This document shows positions 4,559-64,000 of a DNA stretch of 64,000 nt, one piece after another (position 1 is the first letter of the stretch; every line of letters starts with the position of its first letter). The notes beneath the pieces are model-generated. The model was not told the DNA's origin. It made no database searches and saw only the letters and a program-made list of their open reading frames with translations. The stretch is from Minisyncoccota bacterium. Its GTDB lineage: Bacteria; Patescibacteriota; Minisyncoccia; Phycocordibacterales; UBA9973. The translations under genes and the position numbers were made by a program. The stretch lies in NCBI GenBank assembly GCA_041675085.1, contig JBAYUN010000003.1:28798-92797 (forward strand), given 5' to 3'.

Positions 4559-4600
4559 AAGATTAATTTACAAAAGTACACTTTATAAAGTTAGAGTGTA

Positions 4601-4638
4601 TTTTTTTTATTTCCTAAATTTCTTTAACTGCTTCGATT
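4601..4638. repeat. direct repeat copy 2 (authentic dnaE 3' end)
   Basis: tttttttatttcctaaatttctttaactgcttcgatt overlaps the last codons and stop of dnaE (minus strand). Confidence 0.5.
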
Positions 4639-7600
4639 AGTATGGTCTTAGTGTCTTGTCTTATTGAGACTTTGCCAGTGAAGGCTATGCATTTTTCTGT
4701 TTGGAGTATGGCTTCTGAAGTTTTATAAATACTTGGGAACGCTACGACTTCTATACTTCCAGTAAAATCAGCCACTCTCAAGAACGCCATCTTTTCATTT
4801 TTCTTAGTTATGATTTCTTTTGTATTTTCTATAATTCCAGCTAGAGTGACAACGTTGCCCTCTTTACCTTTTTCTAAAATTTTAGCGATATTGATTTCTC
4901 TTTTTTCTAATTTATCTCTAACTCTATCGAGTGGATGACCTGAGATATAGAGTCCGAGTAATTCTTTTTCCCAAAGTAATTTCTCGTTCTTATTCGCTAG
5001 TGGAGCATCAGTGAGTTTGAATTCTGGAGCTTTTATCTCAGATAATCCTCCAAACAGGGAAATCTGATTTGCGTTTTGTTTGCTACCTTCTTTGTTGTAG
5101 AGGAGCATGTCTTCTAGGTTTGCTAGCAATACTCCACGATCAGCCCACTGGTCCATGCTTCCAGATTTGATTAGAGCTTCCATGGATTTTTTATTTAAAT
5201 TTTTATGTTTAATTCTATCTAGAAAGTCGCCAATAGATTTGAATTTGCCATTATTTTTTCTCTCAGATATTATAGCTTCTCCGATATCGGCTCCAAAGTT
5301 TTTAATAGTATAGAGTCCAAAACGTATCGTCTCTTGGTTAACACAAGTAAAACCTTTAAAGCTTTCATTAATATTTGGAGGCAAGACTTTGATTTTCATT
5401 TTCTCACACTCACTAACTATTTCAGAAATTTTTTCTACGTCTCCGGATTCAGCTGTGAGTACAGCGGACATGTATTCTACCGGGTAATTCGCCTTCATAT
5501 AAGCGGTCTGATATGCGACGCGTCCATATGATGCTGAGTGAGCTTTGTTGAAACCGTAGGCTGCGAAAGGTTCTATCTGACTCCAGAGTTCTTGTGCTTT
5601 TTTCAAAGGCCATTTAGAGTGCTCAACACAACCAGTGATAAAATGTTCTTTTTGTTTTTCCATTTCTTCTGGGATTTTCTTACCCACAGCTTTACGGAAT
5701 TTGTCAGCTTCTCCCCAAGAGTATCCTGCAATATCAATAGCTATCATCAAAAGGTCGTCTTGATATACAAGCACTCCATAAGTTTGCTTTAGTATTGGTT
5801 CAAGCATTGGATCCATGTATTTCACTAGACTTGGGTTGTGTTTGCGTTCGATATAAAGAGGGATGAATTGTATCGGACCGGGACGGTATAGAGCGACCAT
5901 AGCGTTGATATCGTGAATAGAAGTAGGTTTCAATTGTTTTAAATATTGAGTCATACCTCCACCGTTGAGTTGGAATAATCCCATAGTTTCTCCACGCGCG
6001 AGAAGCTCGAAAGTTTTTTTGTCTGCTACGTCAACGTTCTCGATATCTACTTCAATGTTGTGAATTTTCTTTACTATTTTCACAGCGTCAGCAAGGATAG
6101 AGAGGTTACGAATACCCAAGAAGTCGAATTTAGGAAGACCAACGTCTTCTATCTGATACATGTCGTATTGAGTTATGACATCGCCACCTTTCGGATCGTA
6201 TTGTACTGGAGTGAATTCGTACAAGGGCTTCGGAGCGATGACGATACCGGCCGCATGCACCGATACGTGACGGACACAACCTTCCATCTTTTTCGCCAGG
6301 TCGATAATCTCACGAGTAATTTCTTCTTTTTCATATGCTTCTTTGAGTTCGGGAACTAATTTAAAAGCATGCTTGATAGTCATCGGCATACCTTGAGAAC
6401 CCATAGGTATCATACTCGAAATGCGGTCACCAACAGAGTATTCATGACCCAAGGCGCGAGCTACGTCGCGCACCGAACCTTTAGCCATCATGGTTCCAAA
6501 AGTTCCTATTTGAGCTACACGATCTTTGCCGTATTTTTGTTTGGTATATTCTATCATCTCGGCGCGTCTGTTGTCGGCAAAGTCCATATCGATATCGGGC
6601 AGCGACGGACGTTCGGGATTTAGGAATCTTTCGAAAGGTAATTTGTAAGTTAACGGGTCGACGTTGGTAATACCGAGGAGGTATGTAGTCAGAGAGCCGG
6701 CGACTGATCCTCTGATGTTTGTTAGGATACTATTCTCACGAGCATAACGAAGCAAATCTCCCACAACTAGGAAATAAGTCGAATAACCTTTTTGTTTAAT
6801 GATACCGAGTTCGTATTCGAGTCTATCGACGTAGTCTTTAGTTTGTTCTAGCTTACGGAAAGGGAATCCAGCATAAGCGAGTTCTTTTAATACTATATTT
6901 GGGTCACGGTCACCTTCGATTTTGAATTCTGGGAAATACGGCACCCCGAGTTCTATCTCGTAGTCTTCACACATATCGGCTACTATTTTTGTATTACTGA
7001 CCGCCTCCGGAGCGTCTTTAAAGTATTGAAAAGCAGTCTTGGTATCGATAAAAGAAAAGTCATCATCTGAGAATTCAAATTTACCTTTTTCTTTTCCGTC
7101 GGAACCGGTATTAACTTGGAGCAAAGTGTGGTGAGCTTTATGATCGTCACGACAAGGATAATGAGAGTCTTGAGTTGCGACTACTCGCAATCCAAAACGA
7201 GTAGCGAGCGCCAATAGCTTTTCTCTGAGCTCTGCGTCACGTTCGATATGAGGGTGAGATTGAATCTCTAGAAAATAATTTTCCTTACCAAAAATATCAA
7301 TATGAGTATTTATTATCTCTTCTACTTTTTCATGATTCTCAGCCAAGATAGCGCGTGAGAGTTTGCCTCCCATACAACCCGAAAGACAGATAATACCTTC
7401 AGCGTGTTTTTTAACTAATTCTTCATCGACGCGAGGTTTATAATAATATCCGTCGAGGTTAGCCGTCGTCACTATCTGCATTAAATTTTTGTAACCTTTT
7501 AAGTTTTTGGCTAGCAGTATTAGGTGATATCTTTTGTTATCTATACCAGGAGATTTGTCGGTAAGTTTTCTCTCGGCGACGTAGACTTCACAACCGATGA

Positions 7601-13557: not shown

Positions 13558-14559
13558 ATGTTAAATCCACATTTAAAATTAAATCCAAAACTTTTCAATA
13601 CTGACGTAGAACAACAACCAATACGTAAAGGTTTTGGTATTGGACTTTTGCAAGCAGGGGAATTCAATCGCCGTGTCGTGGCTCTCTGTGCTGACTTGAC
13701 TGAGTCTACTCAAATGCATTTATTCAAAGAAAGATTCCCTGAGAGATTTATCGAGATAGGAGTCGCCGAGCAAAATCTAGTGACTGTAGCGAGTGGTATG
13801 GCGGCCATGGGTAAAATCCCTTTTTGTTCTAGTTATGCAATGTTTTCTCCTGGTAGAAATTGGGAGCAAATACGGACTACTATCGCTTATAATGACCGCA
13901 AAGTTATCATTGTCGGTTCGCATGCAGGGATATCTGTAGGTCCTGACGGAGGTACGCACCAAGCTCTAGAAGATATGGCGCTGATGCGTATTATTCCGAA
14001 TATGGACGTAGTTTCTCCTTGTGATTCTATACAAGCAAAGAAAGTTACTTTTACTTTTTTGGAATCTCCACGTCCCGCGTATTTACGTCTCGCTCGTGAA
14101 AAAACTCCTATTATAACTACAGAAGAAACTCCTTTTGAAATAGGCAAAGCTGATATCTATTGGATCCCTGACGTCGGTCTCGCTGATGTCGGTATTATCG
14201 TTACAGGAGGACTGACTCATCGTACTCTCGTAGCTGCAAAAGAATTAGAATCCGTTGGTATTAAAACTAAAGTTATGAATTTGTCTTGTATCAAACCAAT
14301 AGACAGAGAGGCTATCTTAGCTCTGGCTAAAGAAACTAAATGCATCGTCACAGTGGAAGAGCATCAGATTTTAGGAGGTATGGGTTCGGCTGTGGCTGAA
14401 GTCTTGGGAGAGAATTATCCTGTACCGATAGAATTCATCGGAGTCAGAGATCAATTTGGTCAATCAGGAACTCCAGAAGAACTCATAGAACATTATGGTA
14501 TGGGTAAAGAAAATATTAAAGACGCTGTCAAAAAAGTCTTGAAACGAAAGGGGAAATAA
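13558..14559 (+). CDS. transketolase, C-terminal (pyrimidine-binding) subunit
   Basis: IGVAEQNLVTVASGMAAMGKIPFCSSYAMF, the pyrimidine-binding domain, and a C-terminal Tkt domain. The first ATG after the upstream stop is preferred. Confidence 0.85.
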   Translation: MLNPHLKLNPKLFNTDVEQQPIRKGFGIGLLQAGEFNRRVVALCADLTESTQMHLFKERFPERFIEIGVAEQNLVTVASGMAAMGKIPFCSSYAMFSPGRNWEQIRTTIAYNDRKVIIVGSHAGISVGPDGGTHQALEDMALMRIIPNMDVVSPCDSIQAKKVTFTFLESPRPAYLRLAREKTPIITTEETPFEIGKADIYWIPDVGLADVGIIVTGGLTHRTLVAAKELESVGIKTKVMNLSCIKPIDREAILALAKETKCIVTVEEHQILGGMGSAVAEVLGENYPVPIEFIGVRDQFGQSGTPEELIEHYGMGKENIKDAVKKVLKRKGK

Positions 14560-14680
14560 AAAAAATATAGAAACGAAACTTTTTCCGGTACAGATTTTTT
14601 GAAGCTTAAAAAATCCTGAAGTTGACTCGCCGTCGCTCGCCAAACCCCTCCAAAAGTTTGTTTCTATATTTTTTTTACTT
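14560..14680. repeat. conserved ~68-nt core element embedded in a long AT-rich palindrome (copy 1)
   Basis: Arms aaaaaaaatatagaaacgaaactttt and aaaagtttgtttctatatttttttt are inverted repeats of each other with 1 mismatch. They enclose the core tccggtacaGATTTTTTgaagcttAAAAAATCctgaagttgactcgccgtcgctcgccaaacccctcc (14584..14651). It sits between convergent tkt and the PfkB kinase. The same core recurs at 17408..17475 with 2 substitutions. Confidence 0.6.
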
Positions 14681-15694
14681 AACTTCAGTAATCTTATAAC
14701 TCTCTGGTGCGTTTTTTAGAAGTTCTTCTAATTTCGCGCGAGGTAGTAATCCTTTTTGTGCGCCGACATGTTGCACCACTGACATAGAATTAATCGGTCC
14801 AAAAGATAAAGCTTCAGGTATAGTTTTACCAAGTCCGAGGGCAGCAGTGAAAGTCGAAGCGAAAGCGTCTCCTGCTCCAGTCCTGTCTACTGCGGGAGCT
14901 GTATCAGGATAAATAGGAGTGAACCAGACATGCTCTCCGTCAGAAGCGTAGGCTCCGTTTGGCCCGTCAGAAATAGCGACTATCTTCGGTCCTAATGCGT
15001 GAATGCCGTCTGATAAAACTTTGATATCTTTTGTATCATTACTCAATATTTTTTGAGCTTCTTCGACGTTGCAGAAGAATACATGAGTATTAGCATAAAT
15101 ATCTTTTAATTTCTCTATACCTAATTTGATTTGAAAAGTTCCAGGTTGGAAAGCGAGTTTGGTCTCTTTATGTTTTTTCAAATATTCTGCAATTTCTAAA
15201 TGATAAGGTAGGGAATTATCAGCAAGGGACGATAGATACATCCAAGATATTTCTGTATTTTCAAAAGAAGGGAATTTGAAATCAAATTCTGTGTGTTTGA
15301 CTAAAATAGTTCTCTCAACTCCAAACCACAAAACATAATGATAATTAGTTTTTTTATTTTTTTGTATAGATATATAGTCAGTCGAGATACCTTCTTTTTT
15401 TAATTCTTCAATACAGTCACGACCGTTTTGATCATCTCCGATATTAGTCACGAGAGCAGAATTGAGTCCGAGCCTTTTTGCACTTACTGCAGCATTCGGA
15501 CTATTGCCGACGGCGTTTAATACGTCTACAGATTCATAAGGGATTTTATCTCCAAATCTCATACATAATTCACAAGTATTTGTGTCTACTTTGCAATTCA
15601 CATGAGCGTCTTGTAATTTGATAAAAGCGTCGATGACTATATCACCTATAGCTAGAAAGTCTATTTTCTTTGTTTTCTTTTTAAATATATTCAT
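14675..15694 (-). CDS. PfkB-family carbohydrate kinase (ribokinase-like)
   Basis: N-terminal AIGDIVIDAF and the C-terminal GAGDAFASTFTAALGLG (PfkB signature 2). Confidence 0.7.
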   Translation of the reverse strand: MNIFKKKTKKIDFLAIGDIVIDAFIKLQDAHVNCKVDTNTCELCMRFGDKIPYESVDVLNAVGNSPNAAVSAKRLGLNSALVTNIGDDQNGRDCIEELKKEGISTDYISIQKNKKTNYHYVLWFGVERTILVKHTEFDFKFPSFENTEISWMYLSSLADNSLPYHLEIAEYLKKHKETKLAFQPGTFQIKLGIEKLKDIYANTHVFFCNVEEAQKILSNDTKDIKVLSDGIHALGPKIVAISDGPNGAYASDGEHVWFTPIYPDTAPAVDRTGAGDAFASTFTAALGLGKTIPEALSFGPINSMSVVQHVGAQKGLLPRAKLEELLKNAPESYKITEVK

Positions 15695-15730
15695 AGTATG
15701 ATTATAGCATAATAGAATTAAGTAAATATA

Positions 15731-17146
15731 ATGCCAAGAAAATTAATTTTAATTTTAGCATTTGTTTTCTTTTTAAACTTTCCACAAGGTGTTTTTGCTA
15801 ATGTTTTGATAAATGAGGTGCAAATAGGAGTCGAAGGGAATGCCAATGATGAATTTATTGAGCTTTACAATAATGGATCAAGTGAAGTTGATCTGACAGG
15901 ATTTTCAATTTATAAGAAAACTTCATCTGGTGCAGAGAGCTCTGTCGTTTCTAAAAGTCGTTTTGATAGTAAGAAAATCCCTGCAAATGGGATTGTATTT
16001 TTGGCTAGAGAAGATGAATATACTGGTAGTAAAACTGTAGATATACTTTGGCCAAATTCATACAGCCTGGCATCCAATAATTCATTAACTTTATACAAAG
16101 ATTTCGAGAGCAAGACAGTAGAGGATACTGTATCTTGGGGAGATGTTAAAAATTTTAAACGTTCAAATACAAATACTGGAACTTCACCTGACTCAGAAAA
16201 TAATCCGGAAATAGAAATAGATGAAGTTGCTACAAATAATATTTTAAATTCTTCTAGTAATTTTGTTTCTAAAACTCAAAAACCTACACTTAAAATCATT
16301 AGTAAAAATTCTGGCTTCGTTGGTGTGCCTATGGAATTCGAAGCTCGGTTGGAATCTCTCGAATACAAGAATCTCTATGCAAAATATGTCTGGAATTTTG
16401 GTGACGGCTCGGCTGTAGAGTTCAAAGATTATGAAAATAAAAAGTTCTCTCACACTTTTTATTATGCTGGAGAATATCTAGTAAGCTTAGAGTACTATGC
16501 AAATCCTCAGCAATTAAGCGCAGATTATATAGCTAAAATCAATATTAAGATAATTCATCCAAATATTTTAATCTCAAGTATTGGAGATACTGGGAATTTT
16601 TATGTGGAGATTACGAATACTTCGGCGCTCGATGTGGACTTGGGTGAGTGGGTTTTATTGGGTAATAATAAATCTTTTACTTTCCCGAAAAATACAAATT
16701 TATTAAGCATGAAGAAGATAATACTTTCGCCTCGAATTACAAATTTTACAATTGAAGATAAAAATTTTCTAGAATTATTAGACAAAAATAGAACTGTAAT
16801 TTTCTCATATAAAAATATAATTAATCAAAAACAAAATACAGGAAACAATATCGTAAAGTATAAAAATACTAATACTATTTTACCTAAAAATAATTCTACG
16901 AATGACATAAGTCCAGAATATTTTATAGAAAATTACGAAGAAGAATTTGAGAATCATGATATCTCGGGAGCTGTCATATTGTCAGATGAAAATCCTCAAC
17001 AAGAAAATAATTTTATTTATATAATTTTGTTTATTTTGCTTATAGGTTTAGCTGTTTTTAGTATTTACTTTTTGCGTAAAAATAGGGGAAATAAAGAGGA
17101 AGAAAATCAAGAAGATTTAGAAGACTTTGAAATTTTAGATGAATAG
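15731..17146 (+). CDS. secreted protein with two lamin-tail domains (LTD) and C-terminal TM anchor
   Basis: Signal peptide. LTD1 is NVLINEVQIGVEGNANDEFIELYNNGSSEVDLTGFSIY (the canonical INEV...EFIELxN...DLxGW LTD start). LTD2 begins around ILISSIGDTGNFYVEITNTSALDVDLGEWVLL. C-terminal hydrophobic anchor FIYIILFILLIGLAVFSIYFL. Confidence 0.6.
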   Translation: MPRKLILILAFVFFLNFPQGVFANVLINEVQIGVEGNANDEFIELYNNGSSEVDLTGFSIYKKTSSGAESSVVSKSRFDSKKIPANGIVFLAREDEYTGSKTVDILWPNSYSLASNNSLTLYKDFESKTVEDTVSWGDVKNFKRSNTNTGTSPDSENNPEIEIDEVATNNILNSSSNFVSKTQKPTLKIISKNSGFVGVPMEFEARLESLEYKNLYAKYVWNFGDGSAVEFKDYENKKFSHTFYYAGEYLVSLEYYANPQQLSADYIAKINIKIIHPNILISSIGDTGNFYVEITNTSALDVDLGEWVLLGNNKSFTFPKNTNLLSMKKIILSPRITNFTIEDKNFLELLDKNRTVIFSYKNIINQKQNTGNNIVKYKNTNTILPKNNSTNDISPEYFIENYEEEFENHDISGAVILSDENPQQENNFIYIILFILLIGLAVFSIYFLRKNRGNKEEENQEDLEDFEILDE

Positions 17147-17154
17147 TATATTAT

Positions 17155-17376
17155 ATGAAAATGTTTAAAAATTTTTTATTGAAAAAGATGCTTCGCACTC
17201 AAGGTGTACCAGAAGCTCAGATAGATATGTTTATTAAAATGATGGAGAAAGACCCTCAACTTTTTGAAAATATTGCAAAAGAGATCAAAGCTAAGATGGA
17301 TGGAGGTATGGATCAACAGTCTGCGTCTATGGAAGTGATGAAAAAGTATGAAAATGATCTCAAAAAGTTGGTTTAA
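17155..17376 (+). CDS. hypothetical small helical protein
   Basis: 73 aa, charged, no motif recognised. Confidence 0.3.
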   Translation: MKMFKNFLLKKMLRTQGVPEAQIDMFIKMMEKDPQLFENIAKEIKAKMDGGMDQQSASMEVMKKYENDLKKLV

Positions 17377-17387
17377 ATTCTAGATAA

Positions 17388-17497
17388 TAAAAACAAAAAC
17401 AATTTTTTCCGGTACAGATTTTTTGAAGCTTAAAAAATCCTGAAATTGGCTCGCCGTCGCTCGCCAAACCCCTCCAAAAATTGTTTTTGTTTTTATT
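17388..17497. repeat. conserved ~68-nt core element embedded in a long AT-rich palindrome (copy 2)
   Basis: Arms aaaaacaaaaacaatttttt and aaaaattgtttttgttttt are inverted repeats of each other but unrelated to the copy-1 arms. The core at 17408..17475 matches 14584..14651 with 2 substitutions. Confidence 0.6.
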
Positions 17498-17519
17498 AAA
17501 AAAGTTATTAACAGTTTTA

Positions 17520-17552
17520 CTAAAAAAACACCCTAAAAAGGTGTTTTTTTAT
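17520..17552 (+). terminator. terminator-like hairpin
   Basis: AAAAAAACACC-ctaaaaa-GGTGTTTTTTT. Confidence 0.35.
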
Positions 17553-23500: not shown

Positions 23501-23900
23501 TTCGCTGGATACTCTCACTAACGAAGAGGTTAATGAATTCTTTAATGAAAATATTAATCATGTTGTGACAAATAAAACTAAAGAAGGATTTAGTATTAGA
23601 ATAAACAAAGAAGCGAACAGAGATATTAAATTCTCTTGGGTAGCATTAGCTGTGCGAGACGCTAATATTTTCGAAAGTGCTATTCCAGGTTTATCAATTG
23701 ATCAAAATAGTATACCTGTGAATAATCCTCCTGCAACAGATAATACAGAGTCACAAGAAGAGAATATAGAAATTCCTGTAGAGGAAAATACAGATGAAGG
23801 AGCAGCGGTAGAAGAGGTGATACCAGAAGTTGTAGTAGAAGAATTTATACCTGATCCAGTGATTGAAGAAACTGTAGCAGAGAATCCTATAGTAGAATAA
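17586..23900 (+). CDS. giant extracellular repeat protein (2104 aa), putative adhesin/surface-layer component
   Basis: N-terminal signal/TM. Extremely G/S/T/N-rich. Internal repeats: SLFTVGSGDLFQ(I/V)NSSG x3 and GLYATASGGTNNYAAIFD x2. Acidic C-terminal tail. No enzymatic motif. Confidence 0.55.
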   Translation: MKLNKKNNLRNIWKNKSMRVVFGVSFFVFIFLFSTLFSSLVYAAAGVPKVINFQGRLLNSSGDLLGGTGGTDYCYKFSIYDASTGGSKIWPAGSPSTMTIVTREGVFNANVGDTGAGGDTLDLTFTDDQAYMNIEVATKVGSTCAPGDGAESFETLSPRQRIASSAFAINSGTVGGYTPATSATGSQIPVLSSGSLILGDTNPGLRVTGSNTLTFQSGVTGDIQFFSGTNKITSAGVLTIGGALNSAGINSSGTITFSGLSGGGSQCLQVDNSGVVTGTGSSCGAGSVTWNSFTNPTGTQTLTFDDGELNAWTVNSDTETFQTITANSLTTGKVLGISSSSLTSGSLVDLTVTGTGALTGQKGLNISLSGANGTGAQTTYGAYLSNTHTGTSTNVGLYATASGGTNNYAAIFDNGNVGIGDSSPTSLFTVGSGDLFQINSSGQIGSQQAPVSDYLFALNGTTGNNNSRIIDIVQSNNADESSSVVNIVATPTLGTIGSGRTVTGNYLSLTPSATVSDAFLSTYGSSNNLSLSNLTLGDGEVGIYSYGDYSWITGSPVYNGVGESTEFDTYGTYTNVNISPTLTAVPDASFFRTYGGRFNAFVTSAGNSELSAYVYGVSGTASGNLTTTGNTFHSGGYFSASGSADTNYGISSSVGGATTNYGGYFSAFGASDTNYGIYATVGGGTANYSGIFMGGNFGIGDDTPTSLFTVGNGDLFQVNSSGAIAAATGITSSGTINFSGLTASELTATDASKNLVSLSTSTYPSLTEISYVKGVTSAIQTQLNAKGDVSKVGTPVNKQIGVWTGDGTLQGLADFTYENLAGGGQGGQLIIGEENSNNFIKAPDATTSNTWGGTLYMSGGVGNGTGRGGSFNLTGGASGTGDGGEGGSIGIYAGNAIGSGNGNGGNVNLQPGRGKGSGNEGKVRIFSQNGDVGVFFDLSLIDDFYDYTFPNGGGTFTLNDAAQTLTNKTINGANNTITNVSLATGVTGNLPVTNLNSGTGASSSTYWRGDGTWATVSSGSSVWSDLTVPTGNLSLAHGGYTTDFTYNSVTTDNAFTLSSSSLSSGSLVNLAVTGTAAASNTQKALNISNSGANATSTQTTYGAFLSNTRTGTSSTNVGLYATASGGTNNYAAIFDAGDIGVGTTAPTARLDVRGTATGSKWLGLFVEDGATPEASAIISANQNAAVSVQGDGSAYFLGRDVTNDIEFIMGTSTAGGAFAGAMTSHPFWLRTDNQTRLTILNTSGNVGVGDTSPASLFTVGSGDLFQVNSSGAIVAATGITSSGTVTLSSISGSTQCLQVNSSGVVSGTGSTCGGGLTVGTTAISSGGTNRVLFENGSNILSESADFTYDGTTLGVATSSTVASNKALNISQTGATSGTDYAGYFSNTGAATTNVGLYATATGATTNLGLNVDSGQTLLGGTTLSSGTLAKLNIVSTMASNGVTTAIAGIHGDYTFNNGGASSYVQVGNRFVFNNAPTTNANTMVGEILRVIDNTTLANLVRGIEITANAGSNTAGTNTGIRTTGATFGIQAITNGAAGGASLPAAIYGENTGTTQGDVLRLYSNSITTAPQMAQFYHNTSTFSGTGLLMDFAEGSGTFSGNFLDFQKNNTTLFKVTNGGVLSLGFSTNQTATSAVCSTLANSTAPTADTLYELRDCGSTPVADYAEMYPVENDIEFGDIVAVGTELVNTYDVTEGSIDWTKVKGTITKLVKSEKAYQGNVIGIVSDNFGDFSSTGYNIKPEDNPMPVALVGRLPVKIATSSSDIKAGDYITTSNEIGRGMKANRAGFVIGKALEDWSNVDGKDTVMVFVEQGYYNGVSATNFAGIDINTIPQNEINKQILAKLILEENNIDPLNANELFTDRVVAGLEVVTPNLVASTVNTDSLLVEDDSVFKGLSFFESDAGFLAGVKFNGNAEFILPPLFNSDTAGFAIIKAGSKKVDILFENPYITQPVVTTSISFEDNIVTSPNTNEDSLDTLTNEEVNEFFNENINHVVTNKTKEGFSIRINKEANRDIKFSWVALAVRDANIFESAIPGLSIDQNSIPVNNPPATDNTESQEENIEIPVEENTDEGAAVEEVIPEVVVEEFIPDPVIEETVAENPIVE

Positions 23901-23902
23901 AA

Positions 23903-23950
23903 ATCAAAACTAGGATAAAATATTTTATTCTGGTTTTGATTTTTTGATTA
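23903..23950. terminator. bidirectional terminator hairpin
   Basis: AAATCAAAAC ... GTTTTGATTTTTT between convergent genes. Confidence 0.45.
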
Positions 23951-47371: not shown

Positions 47372-47535
47372 ATCAAGAGTGAGGTTTCTTTTGAATTTCA
47401 AAAGAAAAGAGAATTGGCTCAGACCTCCAGCAACCTGTCTTTTAAGGAAAGGTGCTAAATCCAACCTAAAGCCCTAAGGCTGAAGGAAAGATATGTCTCG
47501 CGTCTAGTCCATGCAAGAAAATTCTTTCCTTCATT
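47372..47535 (+). promoter_or_regulatory. SAM-I (S-box) riboswitch with terminator expression platform
   Basis: AUCAAGAGUGAGG...AGAGAAUUGGCUCAGACCUCCAGCAACC...AAGGUGCUAAAUCCAACC...GAAAGAUAUG matches S-box conserved blocks (AUCAAGAG.GG.GGAGGGA.uGGCCC..UGA..CCCGGCAACC / AAGGUGCUAAAUCC). The terminator AAGGAAAGA...TCTTTCCTT plus U-run follows. It lies directly upstream of metK. Confidence 0.8.
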
Positions 47536-55156: not shown

Positions 55157-55214
55157 TATAATAAATTCTGATAAATATATGTTATAATAAAAAAGTGCTA
55201 CTATTAAATAGTTT

Positions 55215-55350
55215 AATCAAGAGTGGTGGTAGAGAATTGGCTCAGTAACCCCACAGCAACCTACAAATGTAAGGTGCTAAATCCAACCAGGTGCGAAAGC
55301 ATCAGGAAAGATATGTCTCGCGTCTAGTCCACGAGAGAAAAATCTTTCCT
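55215..55350 (+). promoter_or_regulatory. SAM-I (S-box) riboswitch, second copy
   Basis: AAUCAAGAGUGGUGGUAGAGAAUUGGCUCAGUAACCCCACAGCAACC...UAAGGUGCUAAAUCCAACCAGGUGCGAAAGCAUCAGGAAAGAUAUG. Terminator GAAAGA..TCTTTCC plus a T-run. Confidence 0.8.
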
Positions 55351-62365: not shown

Positions 62366-64000
62366 ATGAAAGAATACAATCATTTAAAGATAGAAAAGCG
62401 TTGGCAAATAGAATGGGAGAAGAATAAGGTTTATAAGACCAATAATCCTGGAAAACAAAAAAAGATGTATGTTTTGGACATGTTCCCGTATCCGTCTGGA
62501 GCGGGGCTTCATGTTGGGCATCCGAGAGGATATATCGGTAGTGACGTGTATGCGCGTATGAAGAGAATGCAGAATTATAATGTCTTGCATCCTATGGGTT
62601 ATGACGCTTTCGGTTTACCTGCAGAGCAATACGCTATCGAGCACAAGATACATCCTCGTCGTGCAGTAGAAATAAACGTAAAAACTTTTGAGAAGCAATT
62701 GTCTTTTATGGGACTTTCTTATGATTGGGAAAGGAGAGTAAATACTACCGACCCTGAGTACTATAAATGGACACAATGGATTTTCCTACAACTTTATAAT
62801 TCTTGTTATGATACAAAGAAAAACAAAGCTGTACCTATCTCAAGTCTAGTAAAAATATTTGAAAAGTCTGGTAACAAAAACGTATCTATATATAATTCTT
62901 TTGATACTATTTTTACAGCTAAAGAATGGAGAGAATTTTCTGAAATAGAAAAACAAAAAATCTTGATGAATTATCGTCTGGCTTATGAAGCTGAAGCCGA
63001 GGTGAACTGGTGCCAAGTTTTGGGTACAGTGCTCGCTAATGATGAGATAGTCAATGATAAAGATGGACGCATGGTGTCTGAGCGTGGAGGTTATAAAGTA
63101 GAGAAGATAAAGATCAATCAATGGCTTATGCGTATTACGGCTTATGCGGATAGATTACTCTCGGGGCTCGATACTCTAGACTGGGCGAATTCTATTAAAG
63201 AAATTCAAAGAAATTGGATAGGGAAGAGCGTAGGTAGCGAGATTGATTTTCCTGTTAAATTAAACTCCCGGGGAGGACTGACCTCCCCAGATGGGGAGGT
63301 CAGTCCTCCCCAGATACGTGTTTTCACTACTCGCGCAGATACTATTTTTATGGCGACTTATGTAGTGCTAGCTCCGGAGCATGATCTAATATTTCAATTG
63401 AAAGACAAGATAGAGAATTGGGGAGAGGTTTTGAGTTATGTAGAGAAAGCAAAAAGTAAAGAAGATATAGATCGTACTCGTGAAGATAAAGAAAAAACAG
63501 GAGTAGAGCTCAAAGGTATAAGAGCTATTAATCCTGCAAACAATGAAGAGCTACCTGTTTGGATAGCGGACTATGTATTGGCTCATTATGGTACTGGAGC
63601 TATTATGGCTGTGCCTATGCACGACGAACGTGATCGAGATTTTGCTAATACTTATAAATTGAAAATTACAGATTTACCATTAGTGGATGCAAAAGAAATT
63701 ACACAAAAAGTAGGAGGACAATTAGTAAGTAAATATAAAATGCGTGATGCGATATTTGCACGTCAGAGATATTGGGGTGAACCTATTCCTCTGTATCGAG
63801 ATAAAAAAGGAATACTTCATGAAGTCAAAAAACTCCCTCTAGAATTACCAAAAGTAAAATCATACGAACCTACAGGGCTCGCTGAAGGGCCTTTGGCAGG
63901 AGTAAAGTCTTGGGTCTCGTCTGGATATGAGACGAATACTATGCCGGGTTGGGCGGGATCATCTTTCTATTTCTTGCGTTATATGGATCCTAAAAATAGT
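62366..64000 (+). CDS. leuS: leucyl-tRNA synthetase, N-terminal part (continues beyond window end)
   Basis: MKEYNHLKIEKRWQIEWEKNKVYKT..MFPYPSGAGLHVGHPRGY (HIGH motif), HPMGYDAFGLPAE, RVFTTRADTIFMATYVVLAPEH, DERDRDFA. Not in the ORF track because there is no stop in the window. Confidence 0.9.
   Translation, partial: MKEYNHLKIEKRWQIEWEKNKVYKTNNPGKQKKMYVLDMFPYPSGAGLHVGHPRGYIGSDVYARMKRMQNYNVLHPMGYDAFGLPAEQYAIEHKIHPRRAVEINVKTFEKQLSFMGLSYDWERRVNTTDPEYYKWTQWIFLQLYNSCYDTKKNKAVPISSLVKIFEKSGNKNVSIYNSFDTIFTAKEWREFSEIEKQKILMNYRLAYEAEAEVNWCQVLGTVLANDEIVNDKDGRMVSERGGYKVEKIKINQWLMRITAYADRLLSGLDTLDWANSIKEIQRNWIGKSVGSEIDFPVKLNSRGGLTSPDGEVSPPQIRVFTTRADTIFMATYVVLAPEHDLIFQLKDKIENWGEVLSYVEKAKSKEDIDRTREDKEKTGVELKGIRAINPANNEELPVWIADYVLAHYGTGAIMAVPMHDERDRDFANTYKLKITDLPLVDAKEITQKVGGQLVSKYKMRDAIFARQRYWGEPIPLYRDKKGILHEVKKLPLELPKVKSYEPTGLAEGPLAGVKSWVSSGYETNTMPGWAGSSFYFLRYMDPKNS
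63270..63311. repeat. perfect 19-bp GC-rich palindrome inside leuS
   Basis: GGGGAGGACTGACCTCCCC-agat-GGGGAGGTCAGTCCTCCCC. In frame, it encodes ..RGGLTSPDGEVSPPQ.. between the conserved FPV and RVFTTR blocks. Confidence 0.6.

What the first reader, a model, noticed from the sequence alone, without database searches (positions are those of the whole stretch)
14560..17497. Conserved 68-nt core element found twice, each time inside a different long AT-rich palindrome at a terminator position
The core tccggtacaGATTTTTTgaagcttAAAAAATCctgaa(g/a)ttg(a/g)ctcgccgtcgctcgccaaacccctcc occurs at 14584..14651 and 17408..17475 with only 2 substitutions. In each copy it is enclosed by ~20-25-nt arms that are perfect or near-perfect inverted repeats of each other. 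The arms themselves are unrelated between the two copies: aaaaaaaatatagaaacgaaactttt/aaaagtttgtttctatatttttttt versus aaaaacaaaaacaatttttt/aaaaattgtttttgttttt. Copy 1 lies between convergent tkt and pfkB. Copy 2 lies between a small ORF and the giant gene. Two readings are possible. (a) A structured RNA whose closing helix is maintained by covariation while the core is conserved, for example a terminator-embedded sRNA or a protein-binding element. (b) A tiny mobile or homing insertion that targets the loop of pre-existing bidirectional terminator hairpins, so that each copy inherits a different host stem. The core has its own 8-bp hairpin (GATTTTTT/AAAAAATC) and a GC-rich 3' half (CTCGCCGTCGCTCGCC) that is unusual for this genome.
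Basis: seen in the sequence. Interest (0 to 1): 0.6.

Follow-up and report, generated by a model that had tools for sequence, protein, structure and literature searches.

The report
Palindromic repeat element of Paceibacteria
The two look-alike 68-base cores are copies of an apparently undescribed, roughly 115-base hairpin-shaped repeat element. It is scattered through the tiny genomes of one group of candidate-phyla-radiation bacteria, usually just after genes and occasionally in frame inside them.

Summary
The 68-nt core occurs twice (14584-14651, 17408-17475) with 2 substitutions, each time between 23-29-nt inverted arms.

It is not a local curiosity. A 21-mer of the core hits 62 true sites in 33 species-level Patescibacteria assemblies (Nomurabacteria/Paceibacteria) and nowhere else. 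A covariance model adds 10 more copies.

The core folds into a three-way junction:
- P1 is the arms plus a GG/CC pair.
- P2 carries a tandem G.A and a GACG loop.
- P3 carries an AAGCTT loop.

P1 and P3 show compensatory changes. The window minus strand is the better folder in 60 of 67 copies.

The arms belong to the element:
- Identical arms recur at unrelated loci.
- Empty orthologous sites hold no palindrome.
- The whole unit sits in frame inside an M1 aminopeptidase gene and an fmt gene.

Copy 2 is a lineage-specific gain, absent from five relatives.

Best reading: a non-autonomous, RPE/MITE/REP-like palindromic element with an unusually conserved structured core. It is tolerated in 3' UTRs, and copy 1 probably doubles as a bidirectional terminator.

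The idea of insertion into pre-existing terminator loops mostly does not. How the element moves and what binds it are unknown. No Rfam family or paper describes it.

The parts
14554..14583 (.). Copy 1, left arm (A-rich). It overlaps the tkt stop codon at 14557-14559 and carries a bulged G at about 14577.
   Evidence: pairs with 14652-14680. The same arm with compensatory variants is seen in the orthologues L003, L010 and L066.
14584..14651 (-). Copy 1, conserved 68-nt core. The better-folding strand is the window minus strand.
   Evidence: (97.8 bits, E 3e-27).
14593..14615 (-). Copy 1, hairpin P3 (GATTTTTT/AAAAAATC stem, loop containing AAGCTT).
   Evidence: 6 of 9 pairs show changes on both sides across the family. 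The loop bases AGC are invariant.
14622..14643 (-). Copy 1, hairpin P2. On the minus strand it reads UUGGC-GA-GC-GACG-GC-GA-GUCAA, with a tandem G.A and a GACG loop. The G.U pair exists only on the minus strand.
14652..14680 (.). Copy 1, right arm (T-rich). It overlaps the pfkB stop codon at 14675-14677.
17385..17407 (.). Copy 2, left arm.
   Evidence: I4: 23 nt, 100% complementary. Absent from relatives L003, L010, L064, L068 and L075.
17408..17475 (-). Copy 2, conserved core.
   Evidence: 101.5 bits, E 2e-28.
17417..17439 (-). Copy 2, hairpin P3.
   Evidence: Same register as copy 1 (offset 2824).
17446..17467 (-). Copy 2, hairpin P2.
17476..17498 (.). Copy 2, right arm. Its outermost TTTTTATT matches the native T-run found at the empty site of relatives.
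17522..17550 (+). Context, not part of the element: canonical bidirectional terminator (A7-CACC-loop-GGTG-T7) just downstream of copy 2. It is conserved in relatives that lack the element.

Best explanation
Both sites are copies of a dispersed, non-coding, non-autonomous palindromic repeat element of about 115-125 nt. The family is confined, as far as searched, to Paceibacteria/Nomurabacteria-type Patescibacteria (CPR).

**Shown**
- The unit is A-rich arm, 68-nt core, T-rich arm.
- It folds as a three-way junction: P1 (arms plus a GG/CC pair), P2 (tandem G.A, GACG loop) and P3 (AAGCTT loop).
- Stems co-vary while the apical loops stay fixed.
- The strand that is the window minus strand folds better.
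- The inner arms travel with the core. Copies have been gained, replaced and partly deleted at particular sites.
- Most copies abut stop codons. A few lie in frame inside genes and must be translated.

**Inferred**
- The element spreads as a selfish unit through a mechanism that reads the conserved core of one strand, as single-stranded DNA or RNA, using an unidentified trans-acting factor.
- The arms need only pair. They are kept perfect, co-varied and extended into flanking sequence largely by replication template switching at inverted repeats.
- Copies persist where they are harmless: 3' UTRs, tiny intergenic spacers and surface loops of proteins.
- Once transcribed, they form a very stable A-tract/structure/U-tract hairpin. 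Copy 1 is the only structure between convergent tkt and pfkB, so it probably serves as their bidirectional terminator or 3'-end stabiliser.
- Copy 2 is a recent add-on upstream of an existing terminator.
For: **Distribution**
- 63 stretches carry the 21-mer, all but one chance hit (L037) in Patescibacteria MAGs, covering 33 assemblies.
- There are no hits in viral contigs, phages or plasmids.
- The covariance model finds 10 further copies with variant P2. Only 2 copies are in the window, even with filters off.

**Structure**
- 88% of cells are paired, and 14 pairs carry double changes. 0 of 500 shuffles reach this, and slid controls are much lower.
- P2 variants keep the tandem G.A and the GACG loop while the stem changes by compensation.
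- Diverged relatives keep the GACG/GTCG and AGC-containing loops even when P3 changes from an AU-rich to a GC-rich stem.
- G.U cells on the window minus strand number 49, against 18 A.C cells.
- The minus strand has the lower folding energy in 60 of 67 copies, by a mean of 4.6 kcal/mol.

**The arms are part of the unit**
- L044 and L025 share 25-nt arms at unrelated loci. The TAGGG subfamily shares its inner arms, including a conserved unpaired loop.
- Empty orthologous sites hold no palindrome.

**Gain and loss**
- Site 2 is empty in L003, L010, L068 and L075, and holds a truncated remnant in L064.
- The scpA-scpB junction is filled in L050 and L054 but the genes nearly abut (L024) or overlap (L071) there.
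- Different subfamilies and orientations occupy the same site.

**In-frame copies**
- The element lies inside an M1 aminopeptidase (49 of 120 homologues carry an insertion at this one site) and inside fmt.
- Only 1 of the 6 frames of the consensus is open. That count is from reading the sequence, and is consistent with the frames seen.
- The plus-sense in-gene copy has TGA changed to CGA with a compensating stem change.

**The core is constrained**
- Core identity is 94% between the window and L066 or L003, where the flanking genes are 72-84% identical at DNA level.

**Flanking genes**
- They are ordinary housekeeping genes.

**Literature**
- Template switching homogenises and expands inverted repeats and inverts their spacers (PMC8794818, read; PMC8604942 and PMC13100816, abstracts).
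- RPEs insert in frame in Rickettsia genes, and SPRITE is a terminator-like repeat (PMC10969869).
Against: - No mobilising enzyme, target-site duplication or clean insertion breakpoint was found. Filled and empty sites differ by replaced, unalignable spacers.
- Copy number is low: about 2-6 per genome for the 21-mer, and 2 in 64 kb here.
- Several sites are occupied in four or more divergent genomes (downstream of rpsI, recA, sod and tkt). The core there is more conserved than the neighbouring genes. That is what a host-selected RNA motif would show, and is not expected of dead copies of a selfish element.
- The better-folding strand is antisense to the co-directional flanking genes in 20 of 31 cases. 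An mRNA-level role therefore does not explain the strand asymmetry.
- The consensus terminator scan does not call either copy. Some copies sit inside operons within a few bases of the next start codon, which argues against strong termination.
- The template-switching origin of the arms is an inference from compensated changes, not a reconstruction.
Confidence: 0.65

Rival explanations
1. Host-functional structured RNA family. The three-way junction is a cis-acting 3'-UTR element, or a small RNA, that a conserved Paceibacteria protein recognises through the invariant GACG and AAGCUU loops and the G.A motif. It would control transcript 3'-end formation, stability or processing, for example RNase III cleavage of the 20-30-bp stem. 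Copies are kept by selection on the host, and dispersal is incidental.
For: - The core is 94% identical where flanking genes are 72-84% identical.
- Loops are invariant while stems co-vary across deep subfamilies.
- The element is retained downstream of the same housekeeping genes in several genomes.
- The strand-specific G.U and G.A features are typical of a functional single strand.
- Copy 1 is the only structure in a convergent spacer.
Against: - Orientation relative to the flanking genes is mixed: 20 against 11 for co-directional genes, with the majority carrying the weaker strand in the mRNA.
- Copy 2 and others sit next to canonical terminators and are absent from close relatives, so they are dispensable.
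- L064 keeps only a truncated remnant.
- Copies are translated inside genes.
- No conserved promoter was seen, and there is no Rfam match.
Confidence: 0.2
2. A short mobile core, with at most about 10-16 nt of inner arm, homes into the apex of existing hairpins such as bidirectional terminators. The outer stem is therefore host sequence and differs at each locus.
For: - Conservation drops sharply in some subfamilies. Beyond the shared inner arms each locus has its own complementary 5-13 bp, often of terminator type (A5-GGC...GCC-T5 in L038, AAAAAGC...GCTTTTT in L054b).
- The outer right arm of copy 2 (TTTTTATT) equals the native T-run of the empty site in L075.
- A core-less long AT-rich palindrome sits after the giant gene's stop codon at 23899-23944.
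Against: - The empty sites hold no inverted repeat at the insertion point. These are site 2 in four relatives, scpA-scpB, L026, L031 and the aminopeptidase genes L073 and L074.
- Arms of 25 nt are shared by copies at unrelated loci.
- In-gene copies have 12-15-bp outer stems that cannot have pre-existed in the coding sequence.
- Canonical terminators of these genomes have short GC stems and remain intact beside the element.
Confidence: 0.08
3. A DNA-level site. One strand of the element, folded as single-stranded DNA, would be a recognition site for a recombinase, an HUH nuclease, a DNA-uptake system or a replication-linked process, by analogy with REP/RAYT, integron attC sites or uptake sequences.
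For: - Strand asymmetry is independent of transcription direction.
- Orientation is biased with GC skew. 46 of 66 copies have the window-plus orientation on the G-rich strand (p = 0.002, orthologues not collapsed).
- There is a conserved extrahelical base on one arm.
- Uptake sequences and REPs also sit in terminator positions and sometimes in genes. This point is general knowledge, not a result obtained here.
Against: - No Y1 or HUH transposase, integrase or similar gene is among the 115 flanking ORFs.
- Copy density is far below that of uptake sequences.
- The better-folding strand is mostly the leading-strand template, which is not the strand exposed during replication.
- The orientation bias is moderate and confounded with gene orientation.
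Confidence: 0.07

Closest known systems
Rickettsia palindromic elements (RPE)
   Same: - Both are palindromic, non-coding dispersed repeats of about 100-150 bp in a reduced genome.
- Both are found in intergenic regions and also inserted in frame in housekeeping protein genes, where they add a peptide segment.
- In both cases the mobilisation mechanism is unknown (PMC10969869).
   Different: - The host lineage is unrelated (CPR).
- In-frame copies are the exception: two genes were found, and only 1 of 6 frames is open.
- The conserved part is a central three-way-junction core, with arms that vary between copies.
MITEs such as Correia/NEMIS, ERIC and Nezha
   Same: - Small, non-autonomous and multi-copy.
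- Terminal inverted repeats fold into long hairpins in transcripts.
- Located next to genes, and able to affect transcript ends and stability.
   Different: - MITE terminal repeats are the conserved, transposase-bound part, and the interior is free to vary. Here it is the reverse.
- No target-site duplication and no parent insertion sequence were seen.
REP/BIME elements and SPRITE (pneumococcal terminator-like repeat)
   Same: - Extragenic palindromes at gene 3' ends and inside operons.
- Candidates for 3'-end hairpins that stabilise or terminate transcripts.
- They show strand-specific structural features.
   Different: - REPs are about 35 nt with a conserved GTAG head and a cognate RAYT gene. 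Neither was seen here.
- This element is three times longer, with two internal hairpins.
- The consensus terminator scan does not call it.
Integron attC sites
   Same: - Recognition would be by the folded single strand rather than by the sequence of the stem.
- There is an extrahelical base on one arm.
- The structured strand is biased toward the leading-strand template.
   Different: - attC sites have conserved outer R/L boxes and a variable apex, and lie in cassette arrays next to an integrase.
- Here the apex is the conserved part and copies are solitary.

Membership tests
MITE | Small (<300 bp), non-coding and multi-copy in a genome. | tested here: met
   The unit is about 115-125 nt, with up to 5-6 copies per assembly in the fetched stretches. 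No open reading frame of its own is conserved.
MITE | Terminal inverted repeats that are conserved across copies and match those of a parent insertion sequence. | tested here: not met
   The arms are inverted repeats within each copy. Across the family they share only TTTTT/AAAAA and A-richness. No transposase gene was found among the 115 flanking ORFs.
MITE | Direct target-site duplication flanking each copy. | tested here: inconclusive
   Six filled/empty comparisons gave no clean breakpoints. The spacers are replaced rather than interrupted.
Rickettsia palindromic elements | Palindromic repeat inserted in frame in protein-coding genes without disrupting them. | tested here: met
   Found in an M1 aminopeptidase (860 aa, all three Pfam domains intact) and in fmt.
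Rickettsia palindromic elements | Sequence membership in the described RPE families of Rickettsia. | not tested
   No RPE library was available. The host is a Patescibacteria MAG.
REP/BIME | An imperfect palindrome of about 35 nt with a conserved 5' GTAG, and a RAYT (Y1 transposase) gene flanked by copies. | tested here: not met
   The size and architecture differ. No Y1_Tnp was among the families listed for the flanking ORFs (which lists only the top 25 of 142 families, so rare hits could be missed).
Canonical intrinsic terminator | A short GC-rich stem and a 3-8-nt loop, followed directly by a T-run. | tested here: not met
   The consensus scan calls neither copy. The stem is AT-rich with a 68-nt branched 'loop'. 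T-rich 3' arms are present.
Any Rfam 15 family | A score at or near a family's gathering threshold. | tested here: not met
   The only chance-level hit touching the core is the weak SmY match (20 bits against a 39-bit threshold). The window's one gathering-level hit is the SAM riboswitch at 55211-55317.
Integron attC | R''-L''/L'-R' boxes (RYYYAAC/GTTRRRY) at the stem base, a cassette array and a nearby integrase. | not tested
   Copies are solitary and lie beside housekeeping genes. The boxes were not searched for.

The most novel reading that the evidence does not exclude
The conserved three-way junction, with its invariant GACG and AAGCUU loops, G.A motif and one extrahelical base, would be the recognition module of a still unknown, lineage-wide Paceibacteria factor that acts on one folded strand. 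Two versions are possible. In one, this is a new kind of mobile element that moves as a hairpin, keeps a fixed apex, and regenerates its arms at each locus by template switching. In the other, it is a domesticated 3'-UTR regulatory RNA shared by a whole CPR class.
Probability: 0.3. Interest if true: 0.75.

Novelty: new variant of a known kind. Interest (0 to 1): 0.6.

Why it matters
- CPR bacteria have minimal genomes, few recognised mobile elements and almost no characterised non-coding RNAs.
- A structured repeat that is more conserved than the neighbouring housekeeping genes across a whole class implies an unidentified partner, either a mobilising enzyme or an RNA-binding protein.
- The element also gives a ready marker for strain-level gain and loss.
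- It shows that RPE-like in-frame colonisation of essential genes is not peculiar to Rickettsia.
- It offers natural material for studying how replication template switching builds and maintains long perfect hairpins.
- Practically, gene callers annotate it as 30-80-aa 'hypothetical proteins'. It also inflates protein lengths in alignments.

Tried and rejected
- **Segmental duplication.** Rejected: the flanks of the two copies are unrelated.
- **Known RNA family, tRNA-like element or ribozyme.** No Rfam hit even at E <= 10, and no ARAGORN hit.
- **Insertion in rRNA.** Suspected where no flanking ORF ends were found. Rejected: there is no rRNA, and the element lies in frame in a protein gene.
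- **Intron-like excision from mRNA.** Unlikely. Only the stop-free frame is found in genes, and the plus-sense in-gene copy has lost its TGA with a compensating stem change.
- **Small protein gene.** The SD-like GGAGG is not conserved (most copies read TAAGGGG), and the hairpins co-vary.
- **'One arm is native and the other is its inverted copy' at the aminopeptidase site.** The length differences and alignments fit insertion of both arms.
- **Associated transposase next to copies.** Not found.
- **Metagenome scans for site-2 orthologues.** The first pattern was one A too long and found nothing. The second found a single short contig, L075.
- **Protein searches with the element-encoded peptide.**
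  - These returned only short spurious ORFs.
  - They also returned two unrelated repetitive proteins, P0255 and P0258.
- **Orientation against GC skew.** A moderate bias only, confounded by orthologous copies and gene orientation.
Full report
**1. The observation**

The 68-nt core TCCGGTACAGATTTTTTGAAGCTTAAAAAATCCTGAA(G/A)TTG(A/G)CTCGCCGTCGCTCGCCAAACCCCTCC is at 14584-14651 and 17408-17475 on the + strand. None of 100 shuffles gave a match.

Each copy is bracketed by inverted arms:
- Copy 1: 14554-14582 with 14652-14680. This is near-perfect once a one-base bulge in the left arm is allowed.
- Copy 2: 17385-17407 with 17476-17498, 23 nt and perfect.

Both copies also share TTTT(T) before the core and AAAA after it.

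Copy 1 fills the whole spacer between the convergent transketolase C-terminal subunit gene and pfkB. The stem reaches into both stop codons. Copy 2 lies after a 73-aa ORF and before a 2104-aa ORF. A canonical terminator at 17522-17550 follows it.

The full units fold much better than shuffles, but the core alone does not. The window averages roughly 35% G+C, so the GC-rich half of the core stands out.

**2. It is a family**

A 21-mer from the GC-rich half occurs in 63 stretches of the species-representative genome collection.
- 62 of these carry the whole element (a few are cut by contig ends). L037 is a chance hit in a GC-rich genome.
- They come from 33 assemblies, all Patescibacteria, labelled Nomurabacteria, Paceibacterota, Adlerbacteria or 'Saccharibacteria'.
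- The 'Saccharibacteria' label is doubtful. L003 and L010 are syntenic with this window, whose pfkB is in an NCBI Paceibacterota MAG.
- Viral contigs, phage records and plasmids have none.

A covariance model built from 61 copies (A1, R1) finds about 10 more copies in the same stretches that lack the 21-mer. In the window it finds only the two, even with filters off. Rfam 15 has nothing like it. Seven literature searches found no description in CPR bacteria.

**3. Structure**

I read the element on the window minus strand: 5'-arm-UUUUU-AAGGGG-U-[UUGGC GA GC GACG GC GA GCCAA]-UUUC-[AGGAUUUUUU AAGCUUC AAAAAAUCC]-GUACC-GGC-AAAAA-arm-3'.

*Covariation on A1*
- 88% of cells are paired.
- 14 pairs carry changes on both sides.
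- No shuffle out of 500 reaches the observed covariation, and the slid controls score far lower.

*P3*
- It takes the forms GGAUUUUUU, GGAAUUUUU, GGAAAUUUU, GAAUUUUUU and GGAUUUUUC, each with its matching partner.
- In L029 it is GCGAUUCCG/CGGAAUCGC.

*P2*
- It was fixed by my search pattern. The model-only copies show it changing by compensation, for example UUC-GA-GCGC-GACG-GCGC-GA-GAA and UUC-GA-GGCU-GACG-AGCC-GA-GAA.
- Throughout these changes the tandem G.A and the GACG loop are kept.

*More distant relatives*
- These were recovered from an insertion hot spot in an aminopeptidase gene.
- They keep the GACG/GUCG loop and an AGC-containing P3 loop.
- This holds even when the P3 stem becomes CCCCGC/GCGGGG.
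- So the loops and the G.A motif are what is conserved, and the stems only need to pair.

*The junction*
- RNAalifold prefers to extend P2 with G.U pairs instead of my GG/CC junction pair.
- The diverged members pair the two junction strands with each other, for example GCCGUC/GACGGC in L069.
- That supports a three-way junction closed by P1.

**4. One strand is favoured**

- One-sided changes are G.U on the window minus strand in 49 cells, against 18 that would be G.U on the plus strand.
- The tandem mismatch is G.A/A.G on the minus strand and U.C/C.U on the plus strand.
- A single extrahelical base recurs on the same arm, 8-9 nt from the junction.
- The minus-strand fold is the more stable in 60 of 67 copies.

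Orientation relative to genes is not fixed. With the element in window-plus orientation, the flanking gene pairs are +/+ in 20 cases, convergent in 14, -/- in 11 and divergent in 5. The plus orientation sits on the G-rich strand in 46 of 66 copies (p = 0.002, orthologues not collapsed). The strand asymmetry is therefore not explained by a role in the sense mRNA.

**5. Where the arms come from**

Three lines of evidence show that the arms belong to the element.

(i) *Shared arms at unrelated loci.*
- L044 and L025 have unrelated flanks and come from different genomes, yet share 25-nt arms that differ by one compensated pair.
- The TAGGG...CCCTA subfamily (L034, L047, L049, L054, L061) shares inner arms GGCAUAUCUUUUU/AAAAAGAUAUGCC, plus a conserved unpaired loop.

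(ii) *Empty orthologous sites have no palindrome.*
- Site 2 reads TAA-TTTTTT-AAAAAA... in L003, L010 and L075. L068 has an ordinary terminator there.
- scpA and scpB nearly abut in L024 and overlap in L071, but are separated by a full element in L050 and L054.
- L026, L031 and the aminopeptidase genes L073 and L074 are likewise plain.

(iii) *In-gene copies carry both arms*.

It is not fully dead, though.
- Beyond the shared inner arms, each locus in some subfamilies has its own complementary 5-13 bp.
- The outer right arm of copy 2 equals the native T-run of the empty site.
- A core-less AT-rich palindrome follows the giant gene at 23899-23944.

My preferred account of these outer pairs, of the perfect arms and of the compensated changes at orthologous sites is replication template switching. 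Examples of those compensated changes:
- TATAGAAAC/GTTTCTATA becomes TATAAAAAC/GTTTTTATA in L010.
- A base pair is added on both sides in L066.

Template switching is documented to create, homogenise and extend inverted repeats and to invert their spacers (PMC8794818, read; PMC8604942 and PMC13100816, abstracts). This account is an inference.

**6. Gain, loss and replacement**

- Site 1 (tkt-pfkB) is occupied in the window, L003, L010 and L066. In L064 and L068 an extra gene sits there instead.
- Site 2 is occupied only in the window.
- L064 has 92% pfkB identity to the window. It shares the 9-nt stretch after the stop codon and a right-arm-like T-rich tract.
- L064 lacks the left arm and most of the core, so it looks like a deletion remnant.
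- The insertion therefore postdates the split from L003, L010 and L075, and copy 2 is dispensable.
- L058 and L027 have flanks about 88% identical but hold different subfamilies in opposite orientation at one site. Each also has an element where the other has only a plain terminator.
- At one position of the M1 aminopeptidase, at the boundary before the ERAP1_C domain, 49 of 120 homologues carry an insertion.
  - 14 carry this subfamily in one sense and 2 in the other.
  - The rest carry diverged relatives or other inserts.

Recurrent use of the same few sites fits either a target preference or the scarcity of permissive sites in genomes with very little non-coding DNA.

**7. Coding copies**

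- Of the six frames of the consensus, only one is free of stop codons, on the minus sense: NFLRGLASDGEPISGFFKLQKIRTGKKF.
- That frame is the one found in the aminopeptidase (L006, L007, L053) and in fmt (L020).
- The plus-sense in-gene copy (L024) has TGA changed to CGA, with the partner base changed to keep P3.
- The element is therefore translated there, not spliced out.
- Searches with the peptide return only 30-118-aa ORFs called over intergenic copies.
- In-frame colonisation is therefore occasional.

**8. What it most likely is and does**

The anatomy and distribution place it with the small palindromic dispersed repeats of bacteria: RPE, MITE, REP and SPRITE. It has an inverted logic, though, with a conserved apex and free arms.

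No transposase is nearby. The flanking genes are recA, rpsI, grpE, sod, ftsZ, mur ligases and the like.

I commit to a selfish, non-autonomous element at about 0.65.
- Its core would be read on one strand by an unknown factor.
- It would be tolerated in 3' UTRs.
- Copy 1 would be co-opted as the tkt/pfkB bidirectional terminator or 3' stabiliser.

The main rival, at about 0.2, is a host-selected RNA motif.
- For it: the core is more conserved than the neighbouring genes (94% against 72-84%), and some sites are retained across genera.
- Against it: the mixed orientation, the adjacency to intact canonical terminators, dispensability, deletion remnants and translated copies.

**9. Verdict**

The finding is real and much bigger than the two copies. 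It is a new variant of a known kind of element, apparently undescribed, with an open and testable question about its partner and its mode of spread.

Noticed in passing
window 23899-23944: A long AT-rich palindrome (AAAAATCAAAACTAGGATAAAAT|ATTTTATTCTGGTTTTGATTTTT) lies directly after the stop codon of the 2104-aa gene. It looks like a pair of element arms with no core. It could be an ordinary AT-rich terminator, or the footprint or precursor of an element.
   Followed up: partly
window 63270-63311: A perfect 20-nt GC-rich inverted repeat (GGGGAGGACTGACCTCCCCA / TGGGGAGGTCAGTCCTCCCC) with a 2-nt spacer, in a stretch with no complete ORF of 60 aa or more (ORFs running off the window end are not listed). 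There is no other copy in the window. It may belong to another small repeat family.
   Followed up: partly
window 55211-55317; also 47481-47533 and 55304-55350: A SAM riboswitch scores above the Rfam gathering threshold. Its 3' part shares the motif GGAAAGATATGTCTCGC with a second inverted repeat at 47481, where no riboswitch was called.
   Followed up: no
L059 5528-5643: One copy of the element carries an insertion of about 22 nt, a GC-rich palindrome (GCCCTGCCTACCGGCAGGCAGG), exactly in the AAGCTT loop of P3. This is a nested insertion by another tiny repeat.
   Followed up: no
M1 aminopeptidase homologues P0008, P0013, P0021, P0026, P0030, P0036, P0041, P0067, P0074, P0078, P0087, P0115, P0118 (alignment): The same protein family carries other short GC-rich in-frame insertions at several positions (PARNASSTADAGG, PTPSSFGHSPSGRG, DPRHGGAS, PLPPRRGSAKG). 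This suggests that further small repeat families colonise genes in these genomes.
   Followed up: no
L027 about 4560-4700: At the site where L058 has the element, L027 has a different member of the superfamily in the opposite orientation. Its arms are AAAATAGCGGGATTCTT/AAGAATCCCGCTATTTT and its hairpins are GGGCTTACTAGCCC and GCGCCGTCGCGC.
   Followed up: partly
L003, L010 and other 'MAG TPA_asm: uncultured Candidatus Saccharibacteria' records: These records are syntenic with the window, whose pfkB is in an NCBI Paceibacterota MAG, and have 72-78% DNA identity to it. The Saccharibacteria label is probably wrong.
   Followed up: partly
P0241-P0254, P0256-P0262; window ORF 14464-14643 (-): Gene callers annotate intergenic copies of the element as 30-118-aa 'hypothetical proteins', because one frame is open.
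   Followed up: yes
L064 5033-5509; L068 5005-5235: In two relatives the tkt-pfkB spacer holds a small extra gene (158 aa and 76 aa) instead of the element. This spacer turns over quickly.
   Followed up: no
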